A DNA stretch of 64,000 bases, taken from UHGV virus genome UHGV-0311442, one strand, 5' to 3'. Each line of letters opens with the position of its first letter. Within the stretch, counting starts at the first letter, position 1. The position numbers and the translations under genes were made by a program. Source of the stretch: a virus. Under the pieces are notes generated by a model. It saw only the letters and a list, made by a program, of their open reading frames with translations, did not search any database and was not told the DNA's origin. Below, piece by piece: positions 29,655-49,121 of the stretch.

Positions 29655-29667
29655 GGAGATTTTTTTG

Positions 29668-33849: not shown

Positions 33850-33887
33850 GACAGGCTGCCTGCGGGCAGTTGTGTGTCCGTAGGTAA

Positions 33888-33924
33888 CCCCTCCCTGTAA
33901 TGGGGAGGGGTATCCATTTTATTT
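33888..33924 (+). terminator. rho-independent terminator
   Basis: hairpin CCCCTCCC-tgtaa-TGGGGAGGGG followed by TATCCATTTTATTT. Confidence 0.55.
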
Positions 33925-33943
33925 AAAAGTAGGAGTCTTTACG

Positions 33944-36900
33944 ATGCCGAGAGAAGACGCGGCGCAGTTTAACGGTACGCTAAGCACAGCGACGTACCCT
34001 AACCGATTTAACGTGGTCATTCCGCCTGAAGGACCTTTTTATCGTATCGGATTAAAACTCACAGTAGCCGACGATACCGCGCCTAACGGACGTCGTACTC
34101 TGATTGAGGGGTTGGACTACTATTTAGGCTATTACTTTAAAGAACTCGCAGAAGCTGAGCAAGATCAGATTTACGGCGGGTTCATGTTGCTGACCGCAAC
34201 AGAAATCGAATATGAGATTTTAGGGGTAGCACGCCAGTATCGTGTACCACAATCTGAAATCGGAAAGTTCTTAGTTCGTACTGACCTGAAAGACCCACGT
34301 AACGTGGACTGGTCAGAGTTAATGGCGTATGCGCCAGTTATTCAACCCATCGATCCTCCTGCTAACTTAGAAGAAGCTATTCTGAGGGATGAGGTTGTTA
34401 AAGCGTTAAACGATATCCGTAAGAAAATCGTTCAACGTTCAACAGAGTTAGATGCAGCGTTTACCGAAGTCACTAACCTGATTTACGAGAACGGTAAAAA
34501 GGTTTTCGACGAGGAGTTATACCAACACCACCTTAATCCTAACGCACACCAGTATACGACCACTGATGTTGGTGCCCTTCCGGTTTTGGGACGTGCTGTC
34601 GACGCTACAAAAGCGTTTGGACTGACGATTGACGAATTGGCTACGCTGATGGGTTCGGCGGGTATTGAGCAATCAGACGTTGATCAGTTAATGGGTGAAG
34701 CCCTTGGTACCGTTTACGGTCGTTGGGGTAGCACAAACGGTAACGAGCTGACGTTTAAAACCGCAGGCGGACACATCATCAGTATCCGTGGTGATAAGTG
34801 GTTAATTACCTCACCGCAACCGTTGGTGATTAAAGCAGACCAGGACAACAACGAATCGGGTTTGGCGGTTGAATTTAGTGCGGGACTGAATACGCTTTGG
34901 GTGCACTCTGGGACAGAACAGGATGTATTAGCGCCGGTTTACAACTCTGTGTATTTGGTTACACCAGAAATGGTGAACATGTACCTGACGTCTGTAACGT
35001 TACTTGAAGCAAATGCCTATTTCAAACCATCAGACAGCGTAAAACCATACGGTACAGCGAAGCAGTCTAATCCGCTAACGTTGAACGCGAATATTCCCAC
35101 AGCAACCGAGTCGGTTTATGGGGTGTTTTCGATTACGAATATCGCAACCTCCGTAGCACTAGGCACTGCTATTTCCCAAAAGGCGGTGACCGAATTAAAA
35201 GACCGGTTAGACTTGTACGTTGACGATGACTACACGGTTAACGGTAAAGGGTTTGTTAAGACAGGCGATAAAATGGTGTTAACCTTAACGAAAACCGATT
35301 TCGGTATCGATAAGATGGATAACACCATGCCGATCGCTAAACCGGTAACAAAAGCGTTAGCGAATGTGCTGAAAAATAAAAGTGTGAAGGAGCACACGCA
35401 CACTACCGCCGATTTGGATAATGTCCCGATTGGTAGTGCGACTGTAGATGGTATTTTACAGTTGTGGGATGCGATTGATGCCACGAATGATAAAGCCGTC
35501 ACGTCTCGTCAAGGGTGGTTGTTCGCAAAAGAGATCAAGAAGGTTTCCGATAAACTGAATACCATCTTACCTGCGTGGACTGTCGGTGGGGCGAAGTTCG
35601 GTAACAAAAACTTCTTACCCATTCCGGCACTCGGTAATTATTCAGGTTTTACAAAGAACCAGTCCTATCAGAAAGGCGTTGTAGGATATCAACAAGGTAA
35701 AGTTTATTCGTTACGTAATGCTTCTAATGGTGTACCTGGTACAGAGGCTATTTATTACGGTTATGCTGATATCAATACGTCGAATGCATTTGAGAACCCT
35801 CAGCAAACTTCGGTGAAATACCATCCTGCTGGGATGAGTAAATATCCTGGAGTGACCTTAAAAGCTATTTTGATCGGTGGTCAGGAAGCGATTATTTGTC
35901 TGGGTTCTGACAATAACCGTTATCTGGTCTTGTTCAATGGCTCGATGGACCACAGTAAGCACACAGTGGTGTGCCGTGTTACAATGCCGAATTATCGCGA
36001 TAATAGTCCCACTGGTTCAAACGAGATTCCGTGGAATCCTCGGCCAGAATCTGACGATGTTGTTCTGGTTGACGACCACGTTTACCTTCTTCGCTCCACG
36101 GTAAATAACGCTGCTTATGCCGTGGCGGCATGGCGTTTACGTAAAGCCGATTTGTCTACTAATGTTGCGTTAGAATTTGAACGTGTAACGTTAAATGGTG
36201 AAATGGGACAATTCGGAGATAACCTCTGCCTAAGAATTGGCCAGAAGACCGAAGAGTCGCAGACTGGTCAATTCTTCACGTATTACCCACCCGAGGCACG
36301 GGCTAAATGGACAATCGGTCACAACTTTGTCCATGGTCCAGAATGTAACCATGCTTGTGCGGTGCGTGACAGTGTGATTCGTGTGAATCATGTACCCACT
36401 GTGTGGTTTGCGGCTGCCGACGGTTCGACGATTAATTTCCGTCAATGGTCAACAAGTTTCACAATCGATACGTTAACGGGTAGAGTTACGTTGGAGGGTG
36501 CCGAACGTTTCCCCATTAAGGCTGATACTACCACACTGACGTTCGCGGATGGTTCAACTGTAGAAACCAGTCGTAAGTGGGGCGGTGGTCAAGCAAACAA
36601 TCGTTGTTTTGCAACGTATGCTAAACCTAACGGCACCGGAATGATGCTTTCCTGTTGGCAGGTTAACGATGCGGACCAGATGCCGAATGTTTCTATTAAA
36701 GGAACGCAAGGCAAAGAGTTTTTCGATTATTTGCGTTACGATAACCCGAACAATACCTCAGGCGAAGGAACGTTTACTTGGGATAAAGGCCGTGGTTCTA
36801 TCTATACCATCGGTCTTTCTCATCCTGTCGGTATCGGTGGTTCGAATAAGGTTTGGCTATCCAATCCACGCAACCGTTATACGATCGAAGTAGAAGTTGA

Positions 36901-39127
36901 CCCAAGTAAACCTTATGACGTTCCTGGATATAGCGGTTATGGCCCGAACAACAACCGTCGAGAAGTTGATGCAACCCTTTACGAACAGTTAAGCTGTATG
37001 GCTGCTTGCATGACTCCAGAGGAGCGTCACGGCCAGTTAAACGGTTGGTATTTGACGAAAGCGGAAACCTTCCCATATCGAAACATCTACGGTAACTTTG
37101 CCCTGTCATCAGAACGGCTGACGTTAGAGGAAGCGGATCGCCAGAAGATGATTAGGATGATTGTCGATGGTGCACCATCTGGTCAGGCAAACGGTTACGC
37201 GAACGAGCGCATCAGCGCAGCACACCAAAGCGGTAACGCGTTGTTTGCGCTCTGGTTGCTAGGCATTAACACTGTTTGTGAGTTCGACTTATTACAAGTC
37301 TCATGCATGAAAATCTTGAGTAACGGACGTCGAGTTCTCGACATCTATTATTTCATGGTGAGTCCGACTAAAGAAAACGGTTATCTACGTTTTAACTCGG
37401 CTACTTTCAAACTCGTTGATTGGTTCTTAGACCTTGATTACGGCTTAAGTTATCAGTCTCTGAGGGAAGAAGCGGGTAATAAAACGCGACGTGTAGGCCA
37501 GCCAATTTTTGCTTCTGCCGACGGTGTAAACTTCGGTCTATGGCTACCTTATACGCTGACAATACGGAATATCGGGGACCTAAATGCTTTGGGTTACGCT
37601 GCGAAGTATACCTTCGACCCTGGGTCGGGTTGGACTCGCGTTCCCGGTAAGTCACAATTGCGTCGGATGGCCCCTGCTCATAATCCCGAAACAGGCTGCT
37701 ACATGGGTGCGGGTAATTGGGACAAGATGGCACTAATTTTCTCTAAAGCAGATCGTGTCTTCTGTTCAGGTAACGCATATACAGCCGAAGAGTTCGTTAA
37801 TGACACCAGATTCACAACTGGGGGACAGGCGGTTATTATCGCTGGTGTGGAAACTGCCGAAGGTTGGATTCTATATTTGACGGAAGAGGTCAGGTTAGAT
37901 TTCGGTAGTAATAGCTATACATTACCGACGTGGTTGGTGGATTTAAGCAATGAATTCCCAGAAAACCATGCTAACCAGACGTTCTATGTTCATGCTGCTC
38001 TTGTAGGTTCGAAAGCTCAATATCAGATCGGTCTGGAAAAGCTGCCGGATACGAGTTCGCGATTATTTGTTGGTACAGTTACAACCGATAAAAAGCGCAT
38101 AGTTGCTATTAACATCGATAAAGTGAAACGGTTAGGCAGGGTTCGTGAATTAGAAGAACACGCTGCTGTTAGAGATCAGCACGACGTTGCAGCGGCGTAC
38201 GATCGAAAAACGGGTCCACTCCAAACCTTGGTTAACCAACCGCTGAAAGCCCCCACGGCATCTGCGGGCAAGGGTGCAGGGTATGCCGATGGTCAGAGAT
38301 GGAATGCGTTGACCGGGATCACAACACGTCCCAAACTGCCGATACAGGAAACCTACGCAGGTTATAAAAGTATCGGTAGAGTAGCGTATGAGAACTGCGC
38401 TGATCAGTTCTGGCAGAAAGCGGTCGCTGCAAACGTTGCAGCGGCTACTGCGTCTGAGAACAGTCAAGCGGCAGCCGCGAACATGAAGTGGTTGGGCGCG
38501 TATACGAAACCGACTACAGGTGCGAATGCATATCTGGCGCTGAGTCTGCGTGTTAAAGTGCCTGGTAATCCCGGCACCGCTAATCGTAGACTAAAAATCA
38601 GGCTTGCGGCTCCGACAGGTATAACCCAAGTTCGTTACGGGTTAAACCAGTCTGGTGGCACGATGACTGAACAGACAGTAACGTTAACTGCTAACAGTTA
38701 TCTGGAAAAAGAACACGCCGGATTTAAGCCAGCCGAAGAAGTCCGTGTACATGCTACGTTTGTCATTCCAAAAAATGAATACGATAGCTACCGTACGAAG
38801 TTCGGTGCTGTTCAGCTGATTGACGTTGAGTCGAACACTGTCATTAAACAGACAGATATCGACACACCGTTTATCGTGTATACCGACACGGAGTTAGCAG
38901 CGCAATCTGGTTTGGTGTATAAAGCGGTTAAGGGTCAGTTCCATCAACTCCCGTCTCAACCTGTCGTCATTGTAACTGATGGACAGACAGGGACTACGCC
39001 ACCGGTGAAAACCTCGTTTGCTGACGGGACATTAACGGTCTACGTGGCAACCACGTACGATGCGGTTAACCCAGCACAAACCCGCGATATCGATAAGCTC
39101 CAGTTCAATCTTATGTTTACATCTTAA
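33944..39127 (+). CDS. tail fibre / receptor-binding protein (1727 aa)
   Basis: shares N-terminal GPFY...DYxLxY module; largest ORF of the operon. Confidence 0.6.
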   Translation: MPREDAAQFNGTLSTATYPNRFNVVIPPEGPFYRIGLKLTVADDTAPNGRRTLIEGLDYYLGYYFKELAEAEQDQIYGGFMLLTATEIEYEILGVARQYRVPQSEIGKFLVRTDLKDPRNVDWSELMAYAPVIQPIDPPANLEEAILRDEVVKALNDIRKKIVQRSTELDAAFTEVTNLIYENGKKVFDEELYQHHLNPNAHQYTTTDVGALPVLGRAVDATKAFGLTIDELATLMGSAGIEQSDVDQLMGEALGTVYGRWGSTNGNELTFKTAGGHIISIRGDKWLITSPQPLVIKADQDNNESGLAVEFSAGLNTLWVHSGTEQDVLAPVYNSVYLVTPEMVNMYLTSVTLLEANAYFKPSDSVKPYGTAKQSNPLTLNANIPTATESVYGVFSITNIATSVALGTAISQKAVTELKDRLDLYVDDDYTVNGKGFVKTGDKMVLTLTKTDFGIDKMDNTMPIAKPVTKALANVLKNKSVKEHTHTTADLDNVPIGSATVDGILQLWDAIDATNDKAVTSRQGWLFAKEIKKVSDKLNTILPAWTVGGAKFGNKNFLPIPALGNYSGFTKNQSYQKGVVGYQQGKVYSLRNASNGVPGTEAIYYGYADINTSNAFENPQQTSVKYHPAGMSKYPGVTLKAILIGGQEAIICLGSDNNRYLVLFNGSMDHSKHTVVCRVTMPNYRDNSPTGSNEIPWNPRPESDDVVLVDDHVYLLRSTVNNAAYAVAAWRLRKADLSTNVALEFERVTLNGEMGQFGDNLCLRIGQKTEESQTGQFFTYYPPEARAKWTIGHNFVHGPECNHACAVRDSVIRVNHVPTVWFAAADGSTINFRQWSTSFTIDTLTGRVTLEGAERFPIKADTTTLTFADGSTVETSRKWGGGQANNRCFATYAKPNGTGMMLSCWQVNDADQMPNVSIKGTQGKEFFDYLRYDNPNNTSGEGTFTWDKGRGSIYTIGLSHPVGIGGSNKVWLSNPRNRYTIEVEVDPSKPYDVPGYSGYGPNNNRREVDATLYEQLSCMAACMTPEERHGQLNGWYLTKAETFPYRNIYGNFALSSERLTLEEADRQKMIRMIVDGAPSGQANGYANERISAAHQSGNALFALWLLGINTVCEFDLLQVSCMKILSNGRRVLDIYYFMVSPTKENGYLRFNSATFKLVDWFLDLDYGLSYQSLREEAGNKTRRVGQPIFASADGVNFGLWLPYTLTIRNIGDLNALGYAAKYTFDPGSGWTRVPGKSQLRRMAPAHNPETGCYMGAGNWDKMALIFSKADRVFCSGNAYTAEEFVNDTRFTTGGQAVIIAGVETAEGWILYLTEEVRLDFGSNSYTLPTWLVDLSNEFPENHANQTFYVHAALVGSKAQYQIGLEKLPDTSSRLFVGTVTTDKKRIVAINIDKVKRLGRVRELEEHAAVRDQHDVAAAYDRKTGPLQTLVNQPLKAPTASAGKGAGYADGQRWNALTGITTRPKLPIQETYAGYKSIGRVAYENCADQFWQKAVAANVAAATASENSQAAAANMKWLGAYTKPTTGANAYLALSLRVKVPGNPGTANRRLKIRLAAPTGITQVRYGLNQSGGTMTEQTVTLTANSYLEKEHAGFKPAEEVRVHATFVIPKNEYDSYRTKFGAVQLIDVESNTVIKQTDIDTPFIVYTDTELAAQSGLVYKAVKGQFHQLPSQPVVIVTDGQTGTTPPVKTSFADGTLTVYVATTYDAVNPAQTRDIDKLQFNLMFTS

Positions 39128-39167
39128 CGCCACGAGACAAGGACGTCTCGGATTAAGGAGAGTGGCC

Positions 39168-40367
39168 ATGGCCTCCATTGTATATCAGTACCCTTTAGAT
39201 TTAACGGGAACCCTAACCTCTAACGCCGTGGAGCGTCAGGTTACGTTAGGTACAGGTAAAGTTAACCGTGCGTTTGCTTTTCCTGACGGACCGTTTTATG
39301 CTGATACGTTCCGCTTGCGGGTTGCCAATCGACCCGACGCGACGTATGAACGCGGAACGGACTATGAGTTGATTTTTGCACACCCGGGTTACGAGAAATT
39401 GACGAAGAACCGGGAAGTGGTAATGGCGGTTGTTGTAACGAACACCGCGATTCCGACCGATATCACGGTATCGGCGCAAGTAGTCGGTGGTCCGCAGTCT
39501 GCAAACGTGACTGCGATAGAACAGGCGATTGCCGAGTTGAATCTCGATAATCGAACTGTTGGCTTTAAAGACTTGCGAAATGTGCCGGACACGTTTCCTT
39601 CGGCACCAACGTATAAAGACGTCGGCGATATTTACGGCTTCGAATATATCATTACAGTGCTCGCTGGCATCAAAGATGCGATAACGGCGGGTGATGCTGT
39701 ACAGCTTGAGAACATCAAAGCGATTCTCGAAAGCCTGAAAAACGATTTCCTGGACGCGCTGAACGCGCACATTAACGCCACGGGTAATGTCCACCATCTG
39801 GATATTCATCAGGTTAACGGGTTAACAGAAACGGAGATCCGTGCACTTATCCGTGACGTACAATCTGCCATCGATGCAACCATTACTGATATTAATGCGT
39901 TGAAGAAAGCAGACGAAGCGTTAGGAAAACGTATTGATGCTGTTGTCAAATCTTTGGAAGCGTGGAACGACCAACTTAACATCGTTGCCCAAAACTACCA
40001 GAAGATGGCATTGGCATTGGCGAACCTAAATTCGCTAGTGTTACAGTTACAGAAAAATATCAACGATCTGAACACCAAACTCAACCAAGCGATTCAGCGC
40101 ATTGCTGCGTTAGAACAACGGGGTAATGAGTCCGATCAGAAAATTGATAATCTGCAACAAAACCTGGATGCGCTTAAACAACAGGTTGCGAATAACACGA
40201 ACGCAATCAGTCAGGCGAATCAGAACCTACAAAACCATATTGCGGCGGATAACCCGCACACAGGTTATCTCCACAAGAAATACGGCGGTGTGGTTCAGGC
40301 TCCAGTGCACGTTAACGCTAACTTGACGTCCCGTGATGACGTTCAGGCAGAAGCGGGTACGAAATAA
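39168..40367 (+). CDS. tail fibre-associated protein with C-terminal coiled coil (400 aa)
   Basis: start re-set to ATG 39168 with AAGGAGAG RBS; N-terminal FPDGPFY...DYELIF module; heptad-like Q/N/L-rich C-terminus. Confidence 0.55.
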   Translation: MASIVYQYPLDLTGTLTSNAVERQVTLGTGKVNRAFAFPDGPFYADTFRLRVANRPDATYERGTDYELIFAHPGYEKLTKNREVVMAVVVTNTAIPTDITVSAQVVGGPQSANVTAIEQAIAELNLDNRTVGFKDLRNVPDTFPSAPTYKDVGDIYGFEYIITVLAGIKDAITAGDAVQLENIKAILESLKNDFLDALNAHINATGNVHHLDIHQVNGLTETEIRALIRDVQSAIDATITDINALKKADEALGKRIDAVVKSLEAWNDQLNIVAQNYQKMALALANLNSLVLQLQKNINDLNTKLNQAIQRIAALEQRGNESDQKIDNLQQNLDALKQQVANNTNAISQANQNLQNHIAADNPHTGYLHKKYGGVVQAPVHVNANLTSRDDVQAEAGTK

Positions 40368-40376
40368 CTTTATTAC

Positions 40377-40423
40377 AGGAGGAACTATGCTTATGGGCGT
40401 AGTCCTCCATTCTTTTTTATTTT
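40377..40423 (+). terminator. rho-independent terminator (likely partial)
   Basis: stem AGGAGG...CCTCC followed by ATTCTTTTTTATTTT. Confidence 0.5.
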
Positions 40424-40434
40424 AAGGATACGTG

Positions 40435-40830
40435 ATGGCGATCAGTGTTAAAAATGTACGTGACCGAATCACCAACGTAGAGAACCAAATGGCAACTGGC
40501 CCACGTGTTGATCCGCAAGTTGCGTCGAAAGCACATAATGCCGCCGACACTTTTTCGGGTTGGACGCCAAGTCGGTTAGACTGCGGGGGAAGCTGTAGCT
40601 GGACGTGCTCAAACGGTTGTACGCATGGCTGTACGAGTTGTTCGGGCACCTGTACGTCGGTGTGTGTAGGTAGCTGCTCCTCTGCGTGCGGTAACCAGTG
40701 TACTGGATGTAGTTCAACGTGTTCTGGTGGCTGTTCAGGTTGCAGTGGGACCTGTGGAGGTGCTTGCTCGGGCCGTTGTTCTACGGGTTGTTCTGGTGCT
40801 TGCTCCGGTGGCTGTTCTGGCCCAACCTAA
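40435..40830 (+). CDS. Cys-rich repeat peptide precursor A (leader + (C-x3)n core, ~21 Cys)
   Basis: AAGGA RBS; N-terminal ~50 aa ordinary sequence then DCGGSCSWTCSNGCTHGCTSCSGTC... of only C/S/G/T/N/A/V. Confidence 0.6.
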   Translation: MAISVKNVRDRITNVENQMATGPRVDPQVASKAHNAADTFSGWTPSRLDCGGSCSWTCSNGCTHGCTSCSGTCTSVCVGSCSSACGNQCTGCSSTCSGGCSGCSGTCGGACSGRCSTGCSGACSGGCSGPT

Positions 40831-40840
40831 GAGGTGAAAA

Positions 40841-41239
40841 ATGGCAATTGGATTACCTGCGCTACAAGCGCGGCTAAATAACATTGACAACACTGCATTG
40901 AAGAATACGGGTGCAGTACAAAACTATATTCGTGGGAAAGCGACGAACAACGCAGACCTATTCGGTGGGCAAGCTCGCAACCACTATGACTGCGGGGGAA
41001 GCTGTAGCTGGACCTGTTCGAGCTGTTCTGGTGGTTGTACAGGGAACGCATCAGGCGGCTGTGGCTCTTCCTGTTCTGCAAACTGTGTATCAGGTTGTAG
41101 CGCGGGCTGTAGTGGATGTTCGAATACCTGTTCTGGTGGCTGCTCAGGAAGCTGTACGGGGAGTTGTTCTAACTCGTGTGTAGGAAACTGTTCTGCAGGC
41201 TGCTCTGGTGCTTGCTCCGGTGGCTGTTCTGGGAGGTAA
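40841..41239 (+). CDS. Cys-rich repeat peptide precursor B
   Basis: AGAGGTGA RBS; leader shares NADLFGG and YDCGGSCSWTCS junction with A; CxxxC repeats. Confidence 0.6.
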   Translation: MAIGLPALQARLNNIDNTALKNTGAVQNYIRGKATNNADLFGGQARNHYDCGGSCSWTCSSCSGGCTGNASGGCGSSCSANCVSGCSAGCSGCSNTCSGGCSGSCTGSCSNSCVGNCSAGCSGACSGGCSGR

Positions 41240-41241
41240 TT

Positions 41242-41448
41242 GTGATTAGCCTTAAGAACCTTCGTGATCGGTTAGTAACAGCGGAAGGGTATATTACGAC
41301 CGCTAACGCAAACAACTATATTGCAAACCAGGGCACCGTGTCTTCAACCAATAACCTTGCCGGTTTACCTTTAAGCCATTATAACTGTAACGGCGGATGT
41401 AGCTGGTCGTGCAGTGGTAGCTGTAGTAAAGGTGCGGGGGGAAGGTAA
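41242..41448 (+). CDS. Cys-rich peptide precursor C (short core), GTG start
   Basis: GGGAGG 5 nt before GTG at 41242; ISLKNLRDRL leader resembling A; core YNCNGGCSWSCSGSCSKGAGGR. Confidence 0.5.
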   Translation: MISLKNLRDRLVTAEGYITTANANNYIANQGTVSSTNNLAGLPLSHYNCNGGCSWSCSGSCSKGAGGR

Positions 41449-41597: not shown

Positions 41598-42485
41598 ATG
41601 AAGAATGATTTACATTTAGCGTACAAAACAATTTTCAATCATCCACTTCACATTTCTTCCCCTGATTCCGTACGTGCACACTTAGCAGATGAAGTTCGTC
41701 TGTTGACTCAGTTGCCGGGCGAATGGCCTAAAGTGCGCGGACGTTTCTTTACCGATCGTAAAAACTATCGTGTGGAAAATACGTTTAAGATTCGTGATCT
41801 GACGGCAGAAAGTGTAGTGGTCTTTACCGGTGACTCCGAGTTGCGTGGTAAACTGGTTGCGGGTAAATATTTCTTTAGTGACGGGATTTTGAATAACTCC
41901 GTAGATATGGAATTGTTCTTTACCCCATTTGAAGAAATGGGCGCAAAACCAGTTGCCCGTCGTTGGTGGTCGCCGGATTACTTAGGCTCGTTCCCGTATT
42001 TCTTTACCCTGGTAACACCAGAAACGAAGAACTATTTCGATACGGAATCGTATATCGAAATTGAAGGGTACGAAGCGTTAGGGATTAATTGCTTAGCGGA
42101 TTTAATGGCGTATAGCTATAAGTTCGTGTGGGATCGTGAACGTTCCGTGTGGGTTGCCCTGACGGATGAACACGAAATTACAAAACGCATCCGTAAGCCT
42201 TGGATGCAGCATTTGATTCAAACGCGTATTGGCGAGCATCCGTCAACAGAAGCGGATCTGGCAAAACTCGTTAGTTTCTTAATGACGAAAGTCACGTTAA
42301 CTGACGAAGAGAAAGCAGCAGTGTCGGCGGTGTTGGACCGTAACGTAACGTTAGCGGATTTAGAACGTTTAAATGTCCGTTATAAAGACCTTAATCGTAT
42401 TTTGGAAGCGTATAACTCTCCATTCTTGTTAACCCCTGGTGCTAACGTAGACGACGATCCTTTGTTCGCCATTGATTATATTTAA
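41598..42485 (+). CDS. hypothetical protein (295 aa), cassette accessory
   Basis: GGAG RBS before ATG 41598; sits between precursor genes and radical SAM genes. Confidence 0.5.
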   Translation: MKNDLHLAYKTIFNHPLHISSPDSVRAHLADEVRLLTQLPGEWPKVRGRFFTDRKNYRVENTFKIRDLTAESVVVFTGDSELRGKLVAGKYFFSDGILNNSVDMELFFTPFEEMGAKPVARRWWSPDYLGSFPYFFTLVTPETKNYFDTESYIEIEGYEALGINCLADLMAYSYKFVWDRERSVWVALTDEHEITKRIRKPWMQHLIQTRIGEHPSTEADLAKLVSFLMTKVTLTDEEKAAVSAVLDRNVTLADLERLNVRYKDLNRILEAYNSPFLLTPGANVDDDPLFAIDYI

Positions 42486-42506: not shown

Positions 42507-43430
42507 ATGACAACCAATGCAGAACCAAGGTTATCGAATCGTTTATACGATAAACCCACCGTATTGTCCGTAGTCGCTACGTCCAAGTGTAACCTGGATT
42601 GTAGCTTCTGCGGTGGAGCCTATTACATGAATCGTGAAGATTCTCCGCGAGAGTTTCAACGTGAGCGAATTTTGGAAGCGCTGGAAGCTAATCCAACCAT
42701 TACCGAAATTCAGTGGACGGGTGGTGAGCCATTACTGGCAACCCGTAAAATTGAGGCGTTTGTTGACGAATTAAAAGTGATTCGTCCAGAACTCAAACAC
42801 CAGTTGTATACCAATGGCTTAAAGATGCGTAAATCGCATCTCCCGTTGCTAAAACAGTTTGACAATGTCTACGTTAGCATCGATGGGTTTAAGTCGTCTG
42901 AGCGCCCGTTTATGCGCTTTATTGACGAAGGCTGTTACGAAGCACTGGAAACGATCTACGAGCTGGATAATGTCCAGACTTGGGGTGTCCTGACACGGGA
43001 CCGTTTAGGGGACAAACGCTGGCACGAAGATATTATTCAGCTGCACAGCGCGATTTACCATTACGGTTTCCGTGCAATGACGTTACTCTTAGATGCGAAA
43101 ATGCCAAAACCTTTATCGCCTGACCACGTCATGAACTTTATTTACGGCTACTATCAGGTTCAGGACAACATTGAACGTCTGAATGTAGTAAATGGACGTG
43201 AATGTGGCTTTACGGTAAGTAAAGTGTTTGAAGAAGGGTGTAACGTTTGCAGCGAAAGTCTTTGGATTAATGCAGACGGTGGTGAGCACCAACTCCAGAA
43301 TGCACCTAACGTTCTGGAATCGGGATGTAACCAACTGGCCTTCTCTATCGGTGTAGAGGCGTACGAATATATTCGTCGCGTAGTGATGGCAGGACGTAAT
43401 AGAGGGGCGGCAAATGAGCCAAGCAAATGA
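42507..43430 (+). CDS. radical SAM enzyme (307 aa)
   Basis: CNLDCSFCGG (CxxxCxxC) and GGEPLL SAM-binding motif; extra C-terminal Cys (CNVCSE...GCNQ). Confidence 0.7.
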   Translation: MTTNAEPRLSNRLYDKPTVLSVVATSKCNLDCSFCGGAYYMNREDSPREFQRERILEALEANPTITEIQWTGGEPLLATRKIEAFVDELKVIRPELKHQLYTNGLKMRKSHLPLLKQFDNVYVSIDGFKSSERPFMRFIDEGCYEALETIYELDNVQTWGVLTRDRLGDKRWHEDIIQLHSAIYHYGFRAMTLLLDAKMPKPLSPDHVMNFIYGYYQVQDNIERLNVVNGRECGFTVSKVFEEGCNVCSESLWINADGGEHQLQNAPNVLESGCNQLAFSIGVEAYEYIRRVVMAGRNRGAANEPSK

Positions 43431-44736
43431 ATTCCCTAAGCAGTTAACGTATCAGATCGTAACCAACCTTTCGTGTAACCTGGACTGCGAATATTGTTAC
43501 GAACGTAAGTACCCGCGTAACAACAAAGCGGCCGACATTGTTGATTTCTTACACGCCTGTTTTGAACGTGATAAAAACGAACCGAATGTTGAAGTTATTA
43601 TCGACATTATCGGCGGTGAACCGTTCATGCAGCCTAAGTTGCTGCTGGCAGCGTTTGAAACCGCAGAGCAGTTGTGTAAAGAACACAACCGTCCGTTTAT
43701 GTTTAGTATCTCCACGAACGGGACCTTGTTAGATCGTCCGTTGAACCGTGAGATTGTAGAACGTTGGAAAGACAAACTTTCGGTTGGGGTTTCGATTGAT
43801 GGCTTGCCTGAGTCCCATGACCGTTATCGTATCTTCACAACAACGCGCCAGGGTTCTTACGAAGCCGCAGTACGTGGCTATAATTACTTAAAAGAGGTTG
43901 GCATTGCAGAACTCGGCGTAAAAGCGACCTTTACGTTAGAAACACTGCCGTTCTATGCTGCAGGGATGAAGTCATTAATTGACATTACTGGCGGTGGGAC
44001 AATTTCTGGGAACGTAACCTTCGAAGACGTTATGCCACGTAGCATGGCGACGTCAATCGCTTTACAGATGATGGATGTGATAGATTATTGGGTTGAGAAA
44101 GGATTACACACCAACCCACGTAATATCTTATCGCACATCATTCCAGAAGGGTTGGATTTCGATACGATTTGGGAACCGAACTGGCGTGACCAGTTACTGT
44201 ATAATGACACCGTACGGTTGAACCCAGAACGTTTACGTCCGTTCTGTGGGACGTTAACGCACATGACGTGCTTAGGATTTGACCGTAAGATCTTTGGCTG
44301 TAACCGCTTTATGTCAACGGTAACGTCGCGTTCTGCGGTGTTTGAGTTGGTAGGTCGGGAATTCGTCAGTCTGGACAACGGTAAATTGTTAGAAGAGATT
44401 CAAACGCAATATACCAACTACCCAGAGACCTGTTTAGGTTGTCCGATGAAACACGCTTGTGGTAGCTGTGCGGCGGCTTCTTACGAGAACGGGGAAGGAA
44501 CGTTAGAAGACCGTAAAGCGTATCACGCTGAACGTCGTCAGTGTGGCTGGACGACAGCGAAACTGATGGTGGCGGAATACTGGAAACAGAAGATGGGTAC
44601 GACGTCAGCAAAAGCGTTCCACGACACGAGCATGTGTTATTGCCCACGCTGTGTTCGTGAACGTGCCCAAAAGGAAAAATTATTAAGAGAAGCCAAAGAT
44701 GAAACCAATTCTGATCAACAATATTACGAAGCGTAG
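43414..44736 (+). CDS. radical SAM enzyme with SPASM-like C-terminal domain (440 aa)
   Basis: CNLDCEYCYE and GGEPF motifs; C-terminal CLGCPMKHACGSC cluster typical of SPASM/twitch auxiliary Fe-S domains; 17-nt overlap with upstream gene. Confidence 0.7.
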   Translation: MSQANEFPKQLTYQIVTNLSCNLDCEYCYERKYPRNNKAADIVDFLHACFERDKNEPNVEVIIDIIGGEPFMQPKLLLAAFETAEQLCKEHNRPFMFSISTNGTLLDRPLNREIVERWKDKLSVGVSIDGLPESHDRYRIFTTTRQGSYEAAVRGYNYLKEVGIAELGVKATFTLETLPFYAAGMKSLIDITGGGTISGNVTFEDVMPRSMATSIALQMMDVIDYWVEKGLHTNPRNILSHIIPEGLDFDTIWEPNWRDQLLYNDTVRLNPERLRPFCGTLTHMTCLGFDRKIFGCNRFMSTVTSRSAVFELVGREFVSLDNGKLLEEIQTQYTNYPETCLGCPMKHACGSCAAASYENGEGTLEDRKAYHAERRQCGWTTAKLMVAEYWKQKMGTTSAKAFHDTSMCYCPRCVRERAQKEKLLREAKDETNSDQQYYEA

Positions 44737-45271
44737 AATTCGACTTCTGGATAAGTTTCTGGAAAACAGTAAGCTATTCGGTTGTTATGTGGTGATTAAC
44801 GGTGAAGATTTTACCGATGACGTAAAACGCTTACTGATTCGTCACGGTGTGACTGTAATCATCCCAATGTACTGCACCGAACTTACTGACCTGTCGGTCG
44901 CGGAAATTGAAAAACGTAACCCAGGGTTTGAAGAACGGGTATTGGATTTCCCACGTCACAAAATTGCGTTTCTACGCCGCTCTTTAAGCGAACCCAGCGC
45001 AGAATCTATCACTGTGTTGGCATTGTCCTTCCCCGGCATTACTATCTTCGCAACACGTAACCCGAACTCACCGATTGATGGGTTTTACGATGAGCGAGAG
45101 AAATTTAATACCGTGATTTTTCCTGAGCTAACGCCAGAAGAATGCCAGGGTATCCGTATCGATTGGGAATCGGACTTCGACACAAGATTCCGTCATATCG
45201 ATTTTGAACTGTTAATCGAATTAGGGTTGATTAAAGGAGACGATGAATGTCTGCTACTGGTGAAGGCTTAA
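44699..45271 (+). CDS. hypothetical protein (190 aa), cassette accessory
   Basis: ORF track; overlaps preceding gene by 38 nt. Confidence 0.45.
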   Translation: MKPILINNITKRRIRLLDKFLENSKLFGCYVVINGEDFTDDVKRLLIRHGVTVIIPMYCTELTDLSVAEIEKRNPGFEERVLDFPRHKIAFLRRSLSEPSAESITVLALSFPGITIFATRNPNSPIDGFYDEREKFNTVIFPELTPEECQGIRIDWESDFDTRFRHIDFELLIELGLIKGDDECLLLVKA

Positions 45272-45918
45272 CGAAAGAAGAAATCCGTCGCCGTTATTTT
45301 GCGCACGATTTACCGATTGACCGTCATGGTAACTACATGGAGAAAATCGGTAGTGAAGATCACGGCCGTACAGGGTTTTGTGCGTTACTGCACTATAAGT
45401 TGATTGATGGGATGTCTGATCGCGAAGCATTGGAACAAATGCGTAACTACGACATGTCTGAAATCGAAGCACGGTTTACGCTACAGAAAGCGAAAGACTT
45501 TGTTAACGACACGTTGGGGATTGACCTGGAAGAAATTCGTGCAGGTTTACGTTCCACGGTGCGGTACATCTTTACCGATGTTCAGAAAATTCTAAGCGCT
45601 CTGGAATTCCGTTATCAGGATGCGCGCTATGCTGAGATTCAGGTAGGTGATTTCACTTTCCAGGCAGATGAGAAGTCACAGGTAGCACTGAGTCGTTATA
45701 TCCAGTCAGAAACTGCGCCAGCGTATTGGTTAACGGCTAACAACACCCGTATCGAACCGTTTACGTTAGAACAGTGCAAGACGTTGCTGGCAGCAATCGT
45801 TGAGCGCGATCAAAGACTACACCACGCAATGTCTGAGCAGAAAAGAGAAGTCAGAGCTTGGGCTGAAGCACGTGATTACGATTCAATTAAAGCGTTTGCG
45901 TTAGAGCAAGGGCTGTAA
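45247..45918 (+). CDS. hypothetical protein (223 aa), cassette accessory
   Basis: GGAG RBS; last gene before bidirectional terminator. Confidence 0.5.
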   Translation: MSATGEGLTKEEIRRRYFAHDLPIDRHGNYMEKIGSEDHGRTGFCALLHYKLIDGMSDREALEQMRNYDMSEIEARFTLQKAKDFVNDTLGIDLEEIRAGLRSTVRYIFTDVQKILSALEFRYQDARYAEIQVGDFTFQADEKSQVALSRYIQSETAPAYWLTANNTRIEPFTLEQCKTLLAAIVERDQRLHHAMSEQKREVRAWAEARDYDSIKAFALEQGL

Positions 45919-45982: not shown

Positions 45983-46513
45983 TTAGGACGTAAAACCGTC
46001 CAGCTCACCGTTGGTGGTGGCCAGGTCAATACGATTATCAACAACTTTCGGCGTAATTACGAAAGTTGCCATTACACCTGGTTTATAACGGAGGTTCTTT
46101 TCAGTAACGGTGCACGTTACCGTACGCAGAGTGACGTTTTCATGTTCGTCTTTCTGGTCTTCGGTGTTGTACACAACGTCGCCTGGTGCGATAGCATCGT
46201 TCGGTTTAACTTTATTGATGTAATATTGTAACCAAGCGCGCAGTTCATTTTCTTGAACCCAGCGAGACAGATCGTCAGTTAGTTCAATACGGCCTACAAC
46301 ACCCGGTTCCAGACGATCGTAATGCAGTTCGATTGCACCTTTGAAATTCTCAGAACCTGGTAGTGCAGTCATGGTAACTTTGGTATTCTTACCTTCGCCT
46401 TCCAGCGCAGTAGGGAGACCAAAGGACACTTCTTTATCAGTTACCTGATGTGGTAGCTCAGTGTTAGCAGCATTATAAAGCGCGACCAACATCATCTGGT
46501 TAGTAGCGGCCAT
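45983..46513 (-). CDS. five-member paralog family protein (176 aa)
   Basis: shares N-terminal pattern and ENFKG...HYxRL core with 46579..47109; similar to 49774, 50264, 61107. Confidence 0.55.
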   Translation of the reverse strand: MAATNQMMLVALYNAANTELPHQVTDKEVSFGLPTALEGEGKNTKVTMTALPGSENFKGAIELHYDRLEPGVVGRIELTDDLSRWVQENELRAWLQYYINKVKPNDAIAPGDVVYNTEDQKDEHENVTLRTVTCTVTEKNLRYKPGVMATFVITPKVVDNRIDLATTNGELDGFTS

Positions 46514-46561
46514 TATCTTAAATCCTCAATAGTACGAGTTAAAGAAATATCGGGGAGGTTA

Positions 46562-46571
46562 CCCCCCCCCC
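46562..46571. repeat. C10/G10 homopolymer tract in intergenic hairpin
   Basis: ten consecutive C on plus strand. Confidence 0.8.
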
Positions 46572-46578
46572 GATTTAA

Positions 46579-47109
46579 TTATTCTTTAGGAGACGGTGCG
46601 GTGAAGCCATCCAGTTCACCTTCCAAACCGCTCAGTGCTACTTTCTCAGGAGCCGGAGGAGTAACTTTATACGTCGCGACAGTACCAGGCAGGAACTTCA
46701 AGTGGCCAGCCACAACCGTTACCACGTAAATGGTTTTGCCTTCTTCTTCACGAGAAATAGTTTGCAGGTCGTTTTCACCGAACTCGTCATCGGTGTACCC
46801 TTTCTCAGCCATGGCTGCGTTAACTTTCGCCAGGATCTTCGTTGGTGAATCGAAATCGGTAGTAGGTGCAGTTACTTCAACTTCACCAACGATGTCGCAG
46901 GAAAGACGAGTATAGTGGAATTCTTTCTCGCCTTTGAAGTTCTGGCTTTCTGCCTTGGCGGTCAGAGTAATTTTAGTGTTGCGGCCAGCTTCTCCGGTGA
47001 ACTCAGCGACAGCACTAAAATTAACATCATTTACAGTCAACTTAGAAGCAGTTTGGTTGTTTTTAGCAATTACAATCTCGATAAGCTGCTGTTGAAAAGT
47101 TTTAGCCAT
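46579..47109 (-). CDS. five-member paralog family protein (176 aa)
   Basis: TKITLTAKAESQNFKGEKEFHYTRL aligns with TKVTMTALPGSENFKGAIELHYDRL in neighbour. Confidence 0.55.
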   Translation of the reverse strand: MAKTFQQQLIEIVIAKNNQTASKLTVNDVNFSAVAEFTGEAGRNTKITLTAKAESQNFKGEKEFHYTRLSCDIVGEVEVTAPTTDFDSPTKILAKVNAAMAEKGYTDDEFGENDLQTISREEEGKTIYVVTVVAGHLKFLPGTVATYKVTPPAPEKVALSGLEGELDGFTAPSPKE

Positions 47110-47846: not shown

Positions 47847-48362
47847 TTAAATCTCGACTAAAGCGCTCCAATCGATTGGTTTTTGCTTAACCACTTTCAC
47901 AGTACCACGATTTGGTGACCAGAAAGTAATGTTAGGTTGATTACGAACGTCGATGTGTAACCAGCTGATGTCACATTCAATAAAGTGAATGAACGGAAAC
48001 TCATCAGGGTTAGCAGCGATATAGTCGTGAACCTGTTTTACGGTGCTATCCAACAACGTTGCATCAATTGCGTTACCGAATTTGTGTTGACTTCCTGAAT
48101 CGGCGTAAAGCTGTAACGCACGTTGTTTATAACTACCGCCCTTAGGCTTTTCTTGATTAATAAAGAAATCTAAAGTTCTTAGTCCGCGTTGTTGCGCAGC
48201 GGTTGAGTTAATCACCATTCTACCGAAACGGTTACGAATCTGTTGCAGTGAAATCATTAGCAACGGGTTCATAAACCGGATTGCAGAATCGCCGTATTTG
48301 GCAATATAAGACTGTGGTACTAACTCTCTGAGTTTAAAATTACTCGGATTTGGATGAAACAT
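47847..48362 (-). CDS. peptidase M15-family cell-wall peptidase
   Basis: SGSQHKFGNAIDA and WLHIDVR motifs (zinc ligands of M15 D,D-/L,D-peptidases); GGGAGGGAAG RBS. Confidence 0.6.
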   Translation of the reverse strand: MFHPNPSNFKLRELVPQSYIAKYGDSAIRFMNPLLMISLQQIRNRFGRMVINSTAAQQRGLRTLDFFINQEKPKGGSYKQRALQLYADSGSQHKFGNAIDATLLDSTVKQVHDYIAANPDEFPFIHFIECDISWLHIDVRNQPNITFWSPNRGTVKVVKQKPIDWSALVEI

Positions 48363-49005
48363 CTTCCCTCCCAGACAGAAAAGCGCGTTTGATGTTCAGG
48401 TATTTGACATTAACGGGCTGATCTGTGGTGATATCAATACGTTCGTGGTCAGGGATTGCAGGTTCCTTAAACTCGCGAACGAATAAATAGTTTCGATTAT
48501 AATCTAACGTACGAAACGCGTTAGTGTTGTAGGATGGCTTTGCATTAGGATCTACGTAGGAATCCCAGCCGAATTCAACGACGGCCTTATAAAATGTTTG
48601 GCAGATATAAGGTGAGATTTCCAACGACTGCATAATACGCAGGAACGTTAAATCAGAGAACTCTTTATCGATAATACGCGAAACGTTACCACCCGGTGTC
48701 ATGGGATAGCTACGCTCCGTGTTACATTTTTGATAGAGTAGGTCGTGAATGCAGGCCGCAGGTGCCCACGGTCCGTCAGGATGGAAAATTCCCTGGAGGT
48801 GTTCAGGAATTGACGCTAAATCGGTAACGAACCCTTTCGGTGCTGTTAACCACAGTTGCGTGTCAGGCAATACACCCGTTAAATAAACCGCACGGTCTAA
48901 GTGTACGTGGTCGTGATAAATCTCACGTAACGTAAACGGATAATGGTAATCCTCCGTTAATACAAACCACTTATTGTCTAAACGTTTATATTGAAACTTC
49001 TCCAT
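48340..49005 (-). CDS. DUF1353-like protein
   Basis: TDLASIPEHLQGIFHPDGPWAPAACIHDLLY resembles the DUF1353 D-x-AS-x-P...HD pattern; start re-set to ATG 49005. Confidence 0.4.
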   Translation of the reverse strand: MEKFQYKRLDNKWFVLTEDYHYPFTLREIYHDHVHLDRAVYLTGVLPDTQLWLTAPKGFVTDLASIPEHLQGIFHPDGPWAPAACIHDLLYQKCNTERSYPMTPGGNVSRIIDKEFSDLTFLRIMQSLEISPYICQTFYKAVVEFGWDSYVDPNAKPSYNTNAFRTLDYNRNYLFVREFKEPAIPDHERIDITTDQPVNVKYLNIKRAFLSGREDVSSKSE

Positions 49006-49121
49006 TACCCACACCTTCCCTTATAGAAACCAGAAAAATTCGCATCCACGCTTTTCGTCTTTACGTTTTCGTCCAGACGTTAACGCTTTCCACAATAGTG
49101 CTAAGAGTTTAGCAAACCAGT

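What the first reader, a model, noticed from the sequence alone, without database searches (positions are those of the whole stretch)
40435..41448. Triplet of paralogous leader-core peptides with regular CxxxC repeats
The three ORFs (132, 132 and 69 aa) each have a ~50-aa ordinary N-terminal region with shared elements (L-x-N-x-R-D-R near the N-terminus; N-A-D-L/T-F; a Y/L-D/N-C-G/N-G-S/G-C-S-W-S/T-C-S junction) followed by a core built only of C, S, G, T, N, A, V with Cys at period four (up to ~21 Cys). Each has its own strong RBS; B's stop overlaps C's RBS and C starts at GTG. The architecture mirrors radical-SAM-modified Cys-rich RiPP precursors.
Basis: seen in the sequence. Interest (0 to 1): 0.85.

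Follow-up and report, generated by a model that had tools for sequence, protein, structure and literature searches.

The report
Radical-SAM-matured cysteine-repeat tail-fibre proteins
Three small phage genes with a cysteine at every fourth residue are real, sit next to two radical-SAM enzymes inside the tail-fibre gene block of a giant phage, and most likely encode fibre proteins that these enzymes chemically staple, rather than a free antibiotic-like peptide.

Summary
ORFs A (40435-40830), B (40841-41239) and C (41242-41448) are paralogues (all phrog_6085). A has 21 Cys and B has 20, almost all four residues apart. This is the only frame that stays open in six related jumbo phages (SPN3US group), and it is under strong purifying selection. 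Public annotations of the region are mostly in the wrong frame or on the wrong strand.

Directly downstream lie a 295-aa accessory gene, a radical-SAM gene and a radical-SAM/SPASM gene. The SPASM enzyme is related to the "CXXX-repeat target" maturase family (TIGR04115) and to PapB and CteB.

The "leader-core RiPP" reading is only partly supported. The cluster sits in the tail-fibre module. In unrelated phages (T7-like, lambda-like, P2-like and others) the same junction-plus-CXXX module forms the C-terminus of bona fide tail-fibre proteins, always beside the SPASM enzyme (80 of 80 viral loci). No protease, exporter or RRE was found.

Best reading: these are small tail-fibre subunits whose Cys-repeat rod is covalently cross-linked, probably by thioethers, by phage-encoded radical-SAM enzymes. 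The chemistry and the virion location are inferred, not shown. I found no published description of this link.

The parts
40435..40830 (+). Gene A: 131-aa protein. N-terminal ~49 aa (predicted helix, then an NAAD-x-F-x-G motif), junction CGGSCSWTCS, then a CXXX repeat tract (21 Cys).
40841..41239 (+). Gene B: 132-aa paralogue of A (20 Cys). The distal half of its repeat tract varies between close relatives while the Cys stay invariant.
41242..41448 (+). Gene C: 68-aa paralogue (GTG start) that ends just after the junction (4 Cys). It is conserved as a short form in all relatives and in the distant phage L011, and is extended by a globular domain in L015.
41598..42485 (+). 295-aa accessory protein (phrog_8030, SPN3US gp165). 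Confident AF2 model with no known fold. Distant homologues lie next to CXXX genes in other phages.
42507..43430 (+). Radical-SAM enzyme 1 (307 aa, SPN3US gp164). It has CX3CX2C, GGEPLL and 2-3 conserved C-terminal Cys, and no SPASM domain.
43414..44736 (+). Radical-SAM/SPASM enzyme 2 (440 aa, SPN3US gp163). It is a relative of TIGR04115 (CXXX-repeat target maturase), PapB and CteB. Besides CX3CX2C it has seven conserved Cys.
44699..45271 (+). 190-aa protein of unknown function (phrog_7988, SPN3US gp162). It is co-conserved with the cluster, including in L011.
45247..45918 (+). DUF4376 protein (223 aa, SPN3US gp161) with weak matches to tail-fibre PHROGs.
39162..40367 (+). Upstream tail protein (about 400 aa; homologue of SPN3US gp167, a virion tail protein by mass spectrometry). 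It has an N-terminal domain shared with the giant fibre/baseplate paralogues, then a coiled coil. The true start is near 39162/39168.
33944..39127 (+). 1727-aa tail-fibre/baseplate paralogue (homologue of SPN3US gp168).
40378..40421 (+). Hairpin followed by a U-run (terminator-like) between the gp167-like gene and gene A.
   Evidence: dG -19.7 kcal/mol, z -5.3

Best explanation
A, B and C are small tail-fibre (or fibre-tip) subunits of an SPN3US-like jumbo phage. Each has an N-terminal helical/attachment part with a fibre-type 'NA-x-x-L/F-x-G ... Y' motif and a conserved Cys junction (C-x-G-x-C-S-W-S/T-C). A and B continue into a rod of about 20 C-[ST]-G-[SGT] units. During infection the two phage radical-SAM enzymes encoded just downstream act on the Cys tract in the reducing cytoplasm. 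They are possibly helped by the 295-aa accessory protein. The SPASM enzyme most likely installs a series of thioether cross-links. The result would be a covalently stapled, protease- and redox-resistant fibre segment whose distal, variable half may contact the host surface.

Shown: the genes are real, paralogous and under purifying selection. The CXXX protein and the SPASM enzyme are always adjacent. The cluster lies in tail modules. The module is fused to genuine tail-fibre proteins elsewhere.

Inferred: enzyme-substrate relation (strong), presence in the virion (moderate), thioether chemistry (moderate), role of radical-SAM enzyme 1 and of the accessory protein (unknown).
For: Coding and paralogy.

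Enzyme link: the two radical-SAM genes lie directly downstream. rSAM2 matches TIGR04115 over its full length (114.7 bits) and PapB (116.8 bits). It is 25% identical (E 2e-25) to a bona fide TIGR04115 enzyme that sits next to a Tat-signal CXXX precursor. Its closest solved structure is the thioether synthase CteB. It has the radical-SAM Cys triad plus seven invariant Cys.

All 80 loci fetched carry a CXXX-run ORF on the same strand within a few kb.

Tail-fibre link:
- SPN3US gp167-170, just upstream, are tail proteins by mass spectrometry, while gp161-163 are non-virion (PMC10052503).
- In T7-like podoviruses the CXXX protein follows the T7-tail-fibre N-terminal-domain gene, and a paralogue there carries collagen repeats instead.
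- In a lambda-like siphovirus it follows gpJ.
- CXXX modules are C-terminal to P2-type tail-collar-fibre (E 1e-55) and other tail-fibre domains (E 1e-31).
- Every annotated family among the 25 most-matched families for the upstream neighbours in 23 non-jumbo loci is a tail family.

Other support:
- The operon order CXXX, accessory, rSAM1, rSAM2 is conserved between this myovirus and a T7-like phage, where the two enzymes are fused.
- C-type short paralogues are conserved in a distant phage, and one is extended by a globular domain.
- The distal half of the repeat varies (pN 0.19-0.32) while the proximal half is frozen (pN 0-0.035) between close relatives.
Against: No direct evidence places A, B or C in virions. 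The published SPN3US proteomics reported no product for this locus. The annotated record holds only a wrong-frame ORF there (SPN3US_0166), so these ORFs were probably not in the search database.

A, B and C themselves lack any recognisable baseplate- or fibre-attachment domain. They look like classical multi-copy RiPP precursors: small, tandem, with a shared N-terminus.

The chemistry is unknown. The core has no Asp/Glu acceptor like PapB substrates, and the CXXX-repeat family has no characterised member that I know of or could find.

rSAM2 scores well below the TIGR04115 cut-off (114.7 vs 350). The bacterial partner TIGR04119 is absent.

AF2 gives no confident model of B (pLDDT 48.9), so a fibrous fold is not shown.
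Confidence: 0.55

Rival explanations
1. Classical RiPP natural product. A, B and C are leader-core precursors. The radical-SAM enzymes cross-link the core, a host or unknown protease removes the ~50-aa leader, and the Cys-rich peptide is released at lysis. It would then act as a bacteriocin, signal or metal-binding compound.
For: The genes are small and tandem, with a shared N-terminus and a variable C-terminal core. rSAM/SPASM maturases of this clade are known from RiPP pathways. Bacterial relatives are exported peptides with a Tat-type signal and dedicated TatA/TatC.
Against: No protease, transporter or immunity gene lies in the conserved block, and no RRE-like fold was found in the accessory protein. 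The 'leader' is homologous to internal parts of 250-570-aa tail-fibre proteins. The cluster sits constantly in tail modules of unrelated phages. The C paralogue has almost no core, or carries a globular domain instead.
Confidence: 0.2
2. Structural or metal-binding Cys-rich proteins that are not enzyme substrates. The CXXX tracts would bind metal ions or Fe-S clusters, or form disulfides after lysis (like metallothioneins, or the metal-ion-stabilised tips of T4 fibres). The radical-SAM enzymes would act on something else.
For: The thiol density is very high. Metal-stabilised trimeric fibre tips are known in T4 (from my own knowledge; not tested here).
Against: All 80 viral loci fetched through a relative of the SPASM enzyme also carry a CXXX ORF. 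The same pairing defines the bacterial TIGR04114/04115 system. An extra copy of rSAM1 is inserted directly after gene A in a close relative.
Confidence: 0.08
3. A radical-SAM chemistry other than thioether formation acts on fibre-bound A/B. Examples are Cys/Ser oxidation to formylglycine, C-C cross-links, epimerisation or methylation. The two enzymes might do two different reactions.
For: rSAM2 also resembles anSME (59 bits; PDB 4k37, E 1e-6). The +1 position of the unit is mostly Ser/Thr. There are two distinct radical-SAM enzymes.
Against: The best matches are to thioether-forming enzymes (PapB, CteB/SCIFF, QhpD). From my own knowledge, the characterised SPASM enzymes that act on Cys-rich peptides make thioethers.
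Confidence: 0.15

Closest known systems
CXXX-repeat peptide modification system (NCBIfam TIGR04114/TIGR04117 targets, TIGR04115 radical-SAM maturase, TIGR04119 second maturase; Pfam PF27846 tSAM_targ_Cxxx_rpt). It is defined bioinformatically in bacteria.
   Same: A Cys-every-fourth repeat tract lies next to a homologous radical-SAM/SPASM enzyme (full-length match, 25% identity to a true member). The repeat model scores about the same as for a bona fide precursor.
   Different: The phage enzyme scores far below the family cut-off. There is no TIGR04119 partner, no Tat signal and no TatA/TatC. Instead there are a second, different radical-SAM enzyme, a phage-specific 295-aa accessory protein, a tail-fibre-type N-terminus and a tail-module location.
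PapB/freyrasin and CteB/SCIFF ranthipeptide systems (thioether-forming radical-SAM/SPASM maturases).
   Same: These are the best-scoring characterised enzyme families and the closest solved structure. Their substrates carry repeated, regularly spaced Cys.
   Different: PapB needs Cys-X3-Asp/Glu, and the phage cores have no acidic acceptor. The phage substrates carry about 20 Cys, and in other phages they are parts of large structural proteins. No N-terminal RRE precedes the radical-SAM core.
His-Xaa-Ser repeat system (HxsA with the paired radical-SAM enzymes HxsB/HxsC).
   Same: Two different radical-SAM enzymes are encoded side by side next to a short-period repeat substrate. rSAM2 hits HxsB and rSAM1 hits HxsC weakly.
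   Different: The repeat is different (HXS vs CXXX), similarity is low, and the Hxs system has no phage or tail context.
Modular phage tail fibres with repeat shafts and separately encoded tip proteins (collagen-like fibre proteins; T4 gp37 metal-stabilised tip; T2/S16 gp38 Gly-rich adhesin). These comparisons are recalled from my own knowledge.
   Same: Position in the tail module, a small-residue repeat region at the distal end, a variable distal part, and a paralogue with collagen repeats in place of CXXX repeats in T7-like phages.
   Different: As far as I know, none of these fibres needs radical-SAM enzymes or has a Cys repeat. The resemblance is a lead and was not tested.

Membership tests
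CXXX-repeat radical-SAM target (TIGR04114 / PF27846) | Tract of tandem Cys-Xaa-Xaa-Xaa units | tested here: met
   A has 17 and B has 16 CxxxC spacings; the unit consensus is C-[ST]-G-[SGT].
CXXX-repeat radical-SAM target (TIGR04114 / PF27846) | Score at or above the curated cut-off of the repeat model | tested here: inconclusive
   B scores 19.4, A scores 14.5 and C has no hit, against a cut-off of 20. A bona fide bacterial precursor scores only 20.0. PF27846 is missing from the local Pfam copy, but it is precomputed as a (weak) hit on 19 of the 34 homologues of B.
CXXX-repeat radical-SAM target (TIGR04114 / PF27846) | Adjacent radical-SAM maturase of family TIGR04115 | tested here: not met
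   rSAM2 aligns over positions 3-345 of 359 but scores 114.7 against a cut-off of 350. It is a homologue (E 2e-25 to a true member), not an equivalog.
CXXX-repeat radical-SAM target (TIGR04114 / PF27846) | Second maturase TIGR04119 and Tat-type export | tested here: not met
   No similarity of rSAM1 or the accessory protein to a TIGR04119 protein. A, B and C have no Tat motif, and the block has no TatA/TatC.
RiPP precursor (leader-core peptide) | Leader recognised by an RRE/PqqD-like domain in a maturase or partner | tested here: inconclusive
RiPP precursor (leader-core peptide) | Leader removal and release or export of the core | not testable with these tools
   No protease or transporter family appears in the conserved block. 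Cleavage itself needs mass spectrometry.
Ranthipeptide/sactipeptide system | Radical-SAM enzyme with a SPASM domain (7-8 Cys for auxiliary clusters) | tested here: met
   Invariant C21/C25/C28 plus C278, C296, C340, C343, C349, C352 and C377. Best hits are PapB, CteB, SCIFF and QhpD.
Ranthipeptide/sactipeptide system | PapB-type Cys-X3-Asp/Glu donor-acceptor motif | tested here: not met
   The cores of A, B and C contain no Asp or Glu.
Ranthipeptide/sactipeptide system | Thioether (S-C) cross-links in the product | not testable with these tools
   This needs MS/NMR of the modified protein.
Phage tail-fibre protein | Encoded in the tail/host-recognition module | tested here: met
   The cluster lies between homologues of the SPN3US tail proteins gp167-170 and the DUF4376 and tail-assembly-chaperone genes. 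The position is the same in T7-like, lambda-like and other phages.
Phage tail-fibre protein | Homology or fusion to recognised tail-fibre domains | tested here: met
   The phrog_6085 module is C-terminal to tail-fibre domains in P0025 and P0006 (phrog_5073) and L038 (tail-fibre PHROGs plus phrog_6085 at residues 342-430). L033 carries a short CXXX tract after a P2-type tail-collar-fibre domain (E 1e-55). A, B and C themselves hit only phrog_6085.
Phage tail-fibre protein | Physical presence in the virion tail | not testable with these tools
   The published SPN3US proteomics reports nothing for this locus, and the annotated record lacks the correct ORFs.

The most novel reading that the evidence does not exclude
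Many phages (at least 491 IMG/VR contigs, spanning myo-, sipho- and podovirus types) build part of their tail fibres from a Cys-every-fourth repeat. Phage-encoded radical-SAM enzymes convert this repeat into a ladder of thioether rings. This would be the first enzymatically stapled virion fibre, and the first case of RiPP-type maturases working on a viral structural protein. In the jumbo phages the three paralogues A, B and C might be the three chains of one heterotrimeric fibre tip whose variable distal half sets host range.
Probability: 0.35. Interest if true: 0.9.

Novelty: new variant of a known kind. Interest (0 to 1): 0.78.

Why it matters
If correct, this links two fields that have not met. 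Radical-SAM/SPASM 'RiPP' enzymes would be acting as maturases of virion structural proteins. That would give phages a way to make covalent cross-links in the reducing cytoplasm, where disulfides cannot form.

It would assign a function to PHROG families of unknown function (6085, 8030, 7988) and to the two 'radical SAM' genes of SPN3US-like phages. It would also give the uncharacterised CXXX-repeat system (TIGR04114/04115) a tractable experimental model: SPN3US already has genetics and proteomics.

It would also flag systematic mis-annotation of these genes in dozens of deposited phage genomes. Practically, such stapled repeat rods could matter for phage stability and host range, and as engineerable, hyper-stable peptide scaffolds.

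Tried and rejected
- Pfam gave no hit for A, B, C, the accessory protein or the 190-aa protein. PF27846 is not in the local copy.
- Megablast found only about 70% nucleotide similarity, confined to the downstream gene.
- AF2 of B was unusable (pLDDT 48.9).
- The extra C-terminal domain of the extended C paralogue (P0034) had no informative relative in phages.
- BLAST of the bacterial TIGR04119 maturase against rSAM1 and the accessory protein was negative.
- The consensus promoter/terminator scan found nothing useful. It missed the hairpin at 40378, which direct folding then showed. The C-accessory spacer has no significant structure.
- Ten literature searches found no paper linking radical-SAM enzymes or CXXX repeats to tail fibres. 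The hits I opened were irrelevant, and the paper I looked up by PMC id (PMC3133131, recalled as the likely source of the CXXX family) is not held.
- I rejected wrong frame or non-coding (only the Cys frame is open in six genomes, with strong purifying selection). I also rejected C as a decaying pseudogene (it is conserved at pN 0.10 against SPN3US, and a junction-only paralogue recurs in a phage whose accessory protein is only 29% identical).

Full report
**What is there.** The window is part of an uncultured jumbo phage. It is 100% identical to IMG/VR contig UViG_3300029126_000001 (225 kb) and distantly related to Salmonella phage SPN3US and the Erwinia 'Agrican/Erskine/Wellington/Derbicus' jumbo phages. 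Nucleotide identity is about 70%, and the SPASM enzyme is 83% identical at protein level.

At 40435-41448 three + strand ORFs follow one another with 10-nt and 2-nt spacers:
- A: 131 aa
- B: 132 aa
- C: 68 aa, GTG start

A has 21 Cys (17 spacings of 4, 3 of 3). B has 20 Cys (16 spacings of 4). C has 4 Cys. The first ~49 residues of each have none. Nothing else in the 64 kb comes close: 17 and 16 CxxxC pairs, against at most 3 in the other 260 stop-free stretches. All three belong to one PHROG family of unknown function, phrog_6085.

**The frame is right, and public annotations are not.** The same A-B-C triplet, in the same order, is present in SPN3US, Asesino, Kwan, EarlPhillipIV and Phobos.
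- All length differences are whole codons.
- Only the Cys frame is free of stops in all six genomes.
- Against each relative, synonymous sites are saturated (pS 0.7-0.9). Non-synonymous differences are 0.1-0.35 for A and B and up to 0.42 for C.
- RefSeq and GenBank annotate only a wrong-frame ORF over B in SPN3US (gp100 / SPN3US_0166). In other phages they give a mixture of wrong-frame and opposite-strand ORFs. The GC-rich repeat keeps several frames open, which explains the errors.

**Context: radical-SAM enzymes.** The following genes lie downstream on the same strand:
- a 295-aa protein (phrog_8030)
- a 307-aa radical-SAM protein (rSAM1)
- an overlapping 440-aa radical-SAM protein (rSAM2)
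- a 190-aa protein (phrog_7988)
- a DUF4376 protein

rSAM2 matches the NCBIfam model 'radical SAM peptide maturase, CXXX-repeat target family' (TIGR04115) over nearly its whole length (114.7 bits, cut-off 350). It matches PapB equally well (116.8 bits). It keeps the CX3CX2C triad and seven further invariant Cys typical of SPASM domains. Its closest solved relative is the thioether synthase CteB.

B scores 19.4 bits on the 18-residue CXXX target repeat model TIGR04114 (cut-off 20). A genuine bacterial system found through the homology search has four parts: a Tat-signal CXXX precursor, a TIGR04115 enzyme at 634 bits, a TIGR04119 second maturase, and TatA/TatC. Its own precursor scores just 20.0. 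The phage rSAM2 is 25% identical to that bacterial enzyme (E 2e-25). The phage cluster is therefore a distant relative of a system known only from bioinformatics. It has a different second enzyme and no Tat export.

rSAM1 is an intact radical-SAM protein (CX3CX2C, GGEPLL) with two or three conserved C-terminal Cys and no SPASM domain.

**Context: tail fibres.** The genes just upstream are homologues of SPN3US gp167-gp170. In published mass spectrometry these are tail proteins, abundant in virions and nearly absent from tailless heads. gp168-170 are regarded as fibre/baseplate paralogues. gp161, gp162 and gp163 (the SPASM enzyme) are 'non-virion' (PMC10052503 text and Table S2). No product of gp164-166 was reported. 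The annotated record has no correct ORF for A, B or C, so that study probably says nothing about them.

**The same module in unrelated phages.** Homologues of B are not confined to jumbo phages.
- In two T7-like podoviruses the CXXX protein follows a short protein that has only the T7 tail-fibre N-terminal domain. Next to it lies a small paralogue with the same N-terminal domain (phrog_5073, 'tail fiber protein') that carries collagen Gly-X-Y repeats where the other carries CXXX repeats.
- In a lambda-like siphovirus it follows gpJ.
- In a TAG-recoded gut phage it lies among Mtd-type fibre genes.
All 80 loci fetched have a CXXX-run ORF on the same strand within a few kb.
- Among 56 non-redundant CXXX proteins the repeat is C-terminal in 39.
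- Several are unmistakable tail fibres. One has a P2-type tail-collar-fibre N-terminus (E 1e-55). A 437-aa protein has the 'SPALTGTPTAPTA...QIATTKFV' fibre motif (tail-fibre PHROGs, E 1e-31). A 568-aa fibre ends in '...NAVTLGGQPPDFYTCGGSCSWSC' plus repeats.
- For the upstream neighbours of the CXXX genes in 23 non-jumbo loci, every annotated family among the 25 most-matched families is a tail family: central fibre J, baseplate wedge, tail fibre, minor tail.

**Operon conservation.** In one T7-like phage the order is CXXX protein, 238-aa protein, then one 668-aa enzyme. The C-terminal half of that enzyme is 36% identical to rSAM2 (E 4e-63), and its N-terminal half resembles rSAM1. The 238-aa protein aligns colinearly with the 295-aa accessory protein (E 0.001).

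A distant phage (L011; accessory protein 29% identical) has the following, in order:
- a long CXXX protein
- a 69-aa paralogue that stops right after 'CGGSCSWT', exactly like C
- the accessory protein
- rSAM1
- rSAM2
- the 190-aa protein

The short C form is therefore a conserved component, not debris. In a fragment of another relative (L015), C carries an extra ~150-aa globular domain after the junction. In close relatives of the window phage (L017, L030), a second copy of rSAM1 is inserted between A and B.

**Fine structure of the repeat.** The unit is C-[S/T]-G-[S/G/T]. Between the window and a close relative (rSAM2 93% identical), the proximal half of the core has pN 0.00 (A) and 0.035 (B) despite pS above 0.7. 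The distal half has pN 0.19 and 0.32, with every Cys kept. This matches a conserved shaft with a variable tip, or a RiPP hypervariable core.

**What could not be learned.**
- B gives no usable model beyond an N-terminal helix.
- Ten literature searches found no paper connecting radical-SAM enzymes or CXXX repeats with tail fibres.

**Interpretation.** I consider it settled that A, B and C are real paralogous genes. I consider it very likely that at least A and B are substrates of the adjacent SPASM enzyme.

The weight of context favours a structural role: small fibre or fibre-tip subunits whose Cys rod is covalently cross-linked in the cytoplasm. The supporting evidence is the tail modules in four unrelated phage types, the fusions to genuine fibre proteins, a collagen-repeat paralogue, the non-virion enzymes, and the absence of a protease or exporter.

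Thioether formation is the most likely chemistry, because all the closest characterised enzymes make thioethers. However, the acceptor residue is unknown and the PapB motif (Cys-X3-Asp) is absent. The roles of rSAM1, the accessory protein and the 190-aa protein are unknown.

The classical RiPP reading remains possible (about 0.2). A, B and C are small, multi-copy and lack a recognisable attachment domain, and the bacterial relatives are exported peptides.

**Verdict.** The system is a new, phage-borne, tail-fibre-embedded variant of the uncharacterised CXXX-repeat radical-SAM system. It is widespread, and I found no published description of it.

Noticed in passing
L001 4950-5979 (SPN3US NC_027402/JN641803); L002-L005 3000-4200: Deposited annotations miss or mis-frame these genes. 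SPN3US gp100/SPN3US_0166 is a wrong-frame ORF over B, and A and C are unannotated. Asesino gp184-186, Kwan gp183 and Phobos gp167-168 are wrong-frame or opposite-strand calls.
   Followed up: yes
window 40378-40421: A strong hairpin (dG -19.7 kcal/mol, z -5.3) followed by UUCUUUUUUAUUUU lies right after the gp167-like gene and before gene A. It looks like an intrinsic terminator, and the consensus scan missed it.
   Followed up: partly
L030 3576-4487 and L017 (close relatives, rSAM2 93% identical): An extra 303-aa paralogue of rSAM1 is inserted between genes A and B. Those phages therefore carry three radical-SAM genes in the cluster.
   Followed up: partly
L015 3402-4064 (protein P0034): In a related jumbo-phage fragment the C paralogue is 220 aa. 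The usual 68-aa part is followed by a ~150-aa globular domain with no family, PDB or phage match.
   Followed up: partly
L008/L009 (ENA ERZ27233364 contig k141_250490): A gut phage carrying the CXXX protein and SPASM enzyme reads TAG as a sense codon: in-frame TAG occurs in most genes, including the CXXX gene and the radical-SAM gene.
   Followed up: no
L012 8001-13374 (bacterial metagenome contig): A complete bacterial CXXX system: a Tat-signal precursor, a TIGR04115 enzyme (634 bits), the TIGR04119 maturase, then dedicated TatA and TatC genes.
   Followed up: partly
window 29665-40367: Three consecutive large genes (1394, 1727 and ~400 aa). The last two share an N-terminal domain (phrog_2163). 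By position the three correspond to SPN3US gp169, gp168 and gp167; the SPN3US paper assigns gp168-170 to its 'paralog family C' of tail-fibre/baseplate proteins.
   Followed up: partly
window 45983-47109 (- strand) and 48340-49014 (- strand): Two tandem 176-aa paralogues with the DUF7941 N-terminal domain, and a DUF1353 protein, lie just beyond the cluster. The SPN3US gene at the equivalent position (gp157, ACQ60_gp109) is annotated as a tail assembly chaperone.
   Followed up: no
L045 4807-6249; L060, L088, L092: Gut-phage relatives reach 92 Cys in one 480-aa protein. Some have the CXXX tract at the N-terminus with a conserved ~110-aa C-terminal domain, an apparent circular permutation of the usual order.
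   Followed up: no
window 40435-41239 vs L030: The proximal half of the repeat is identical at protein level between relatives despite saturated synonymous change. The distal half is highly variable, with all Cys kept.
   Followed up: partly
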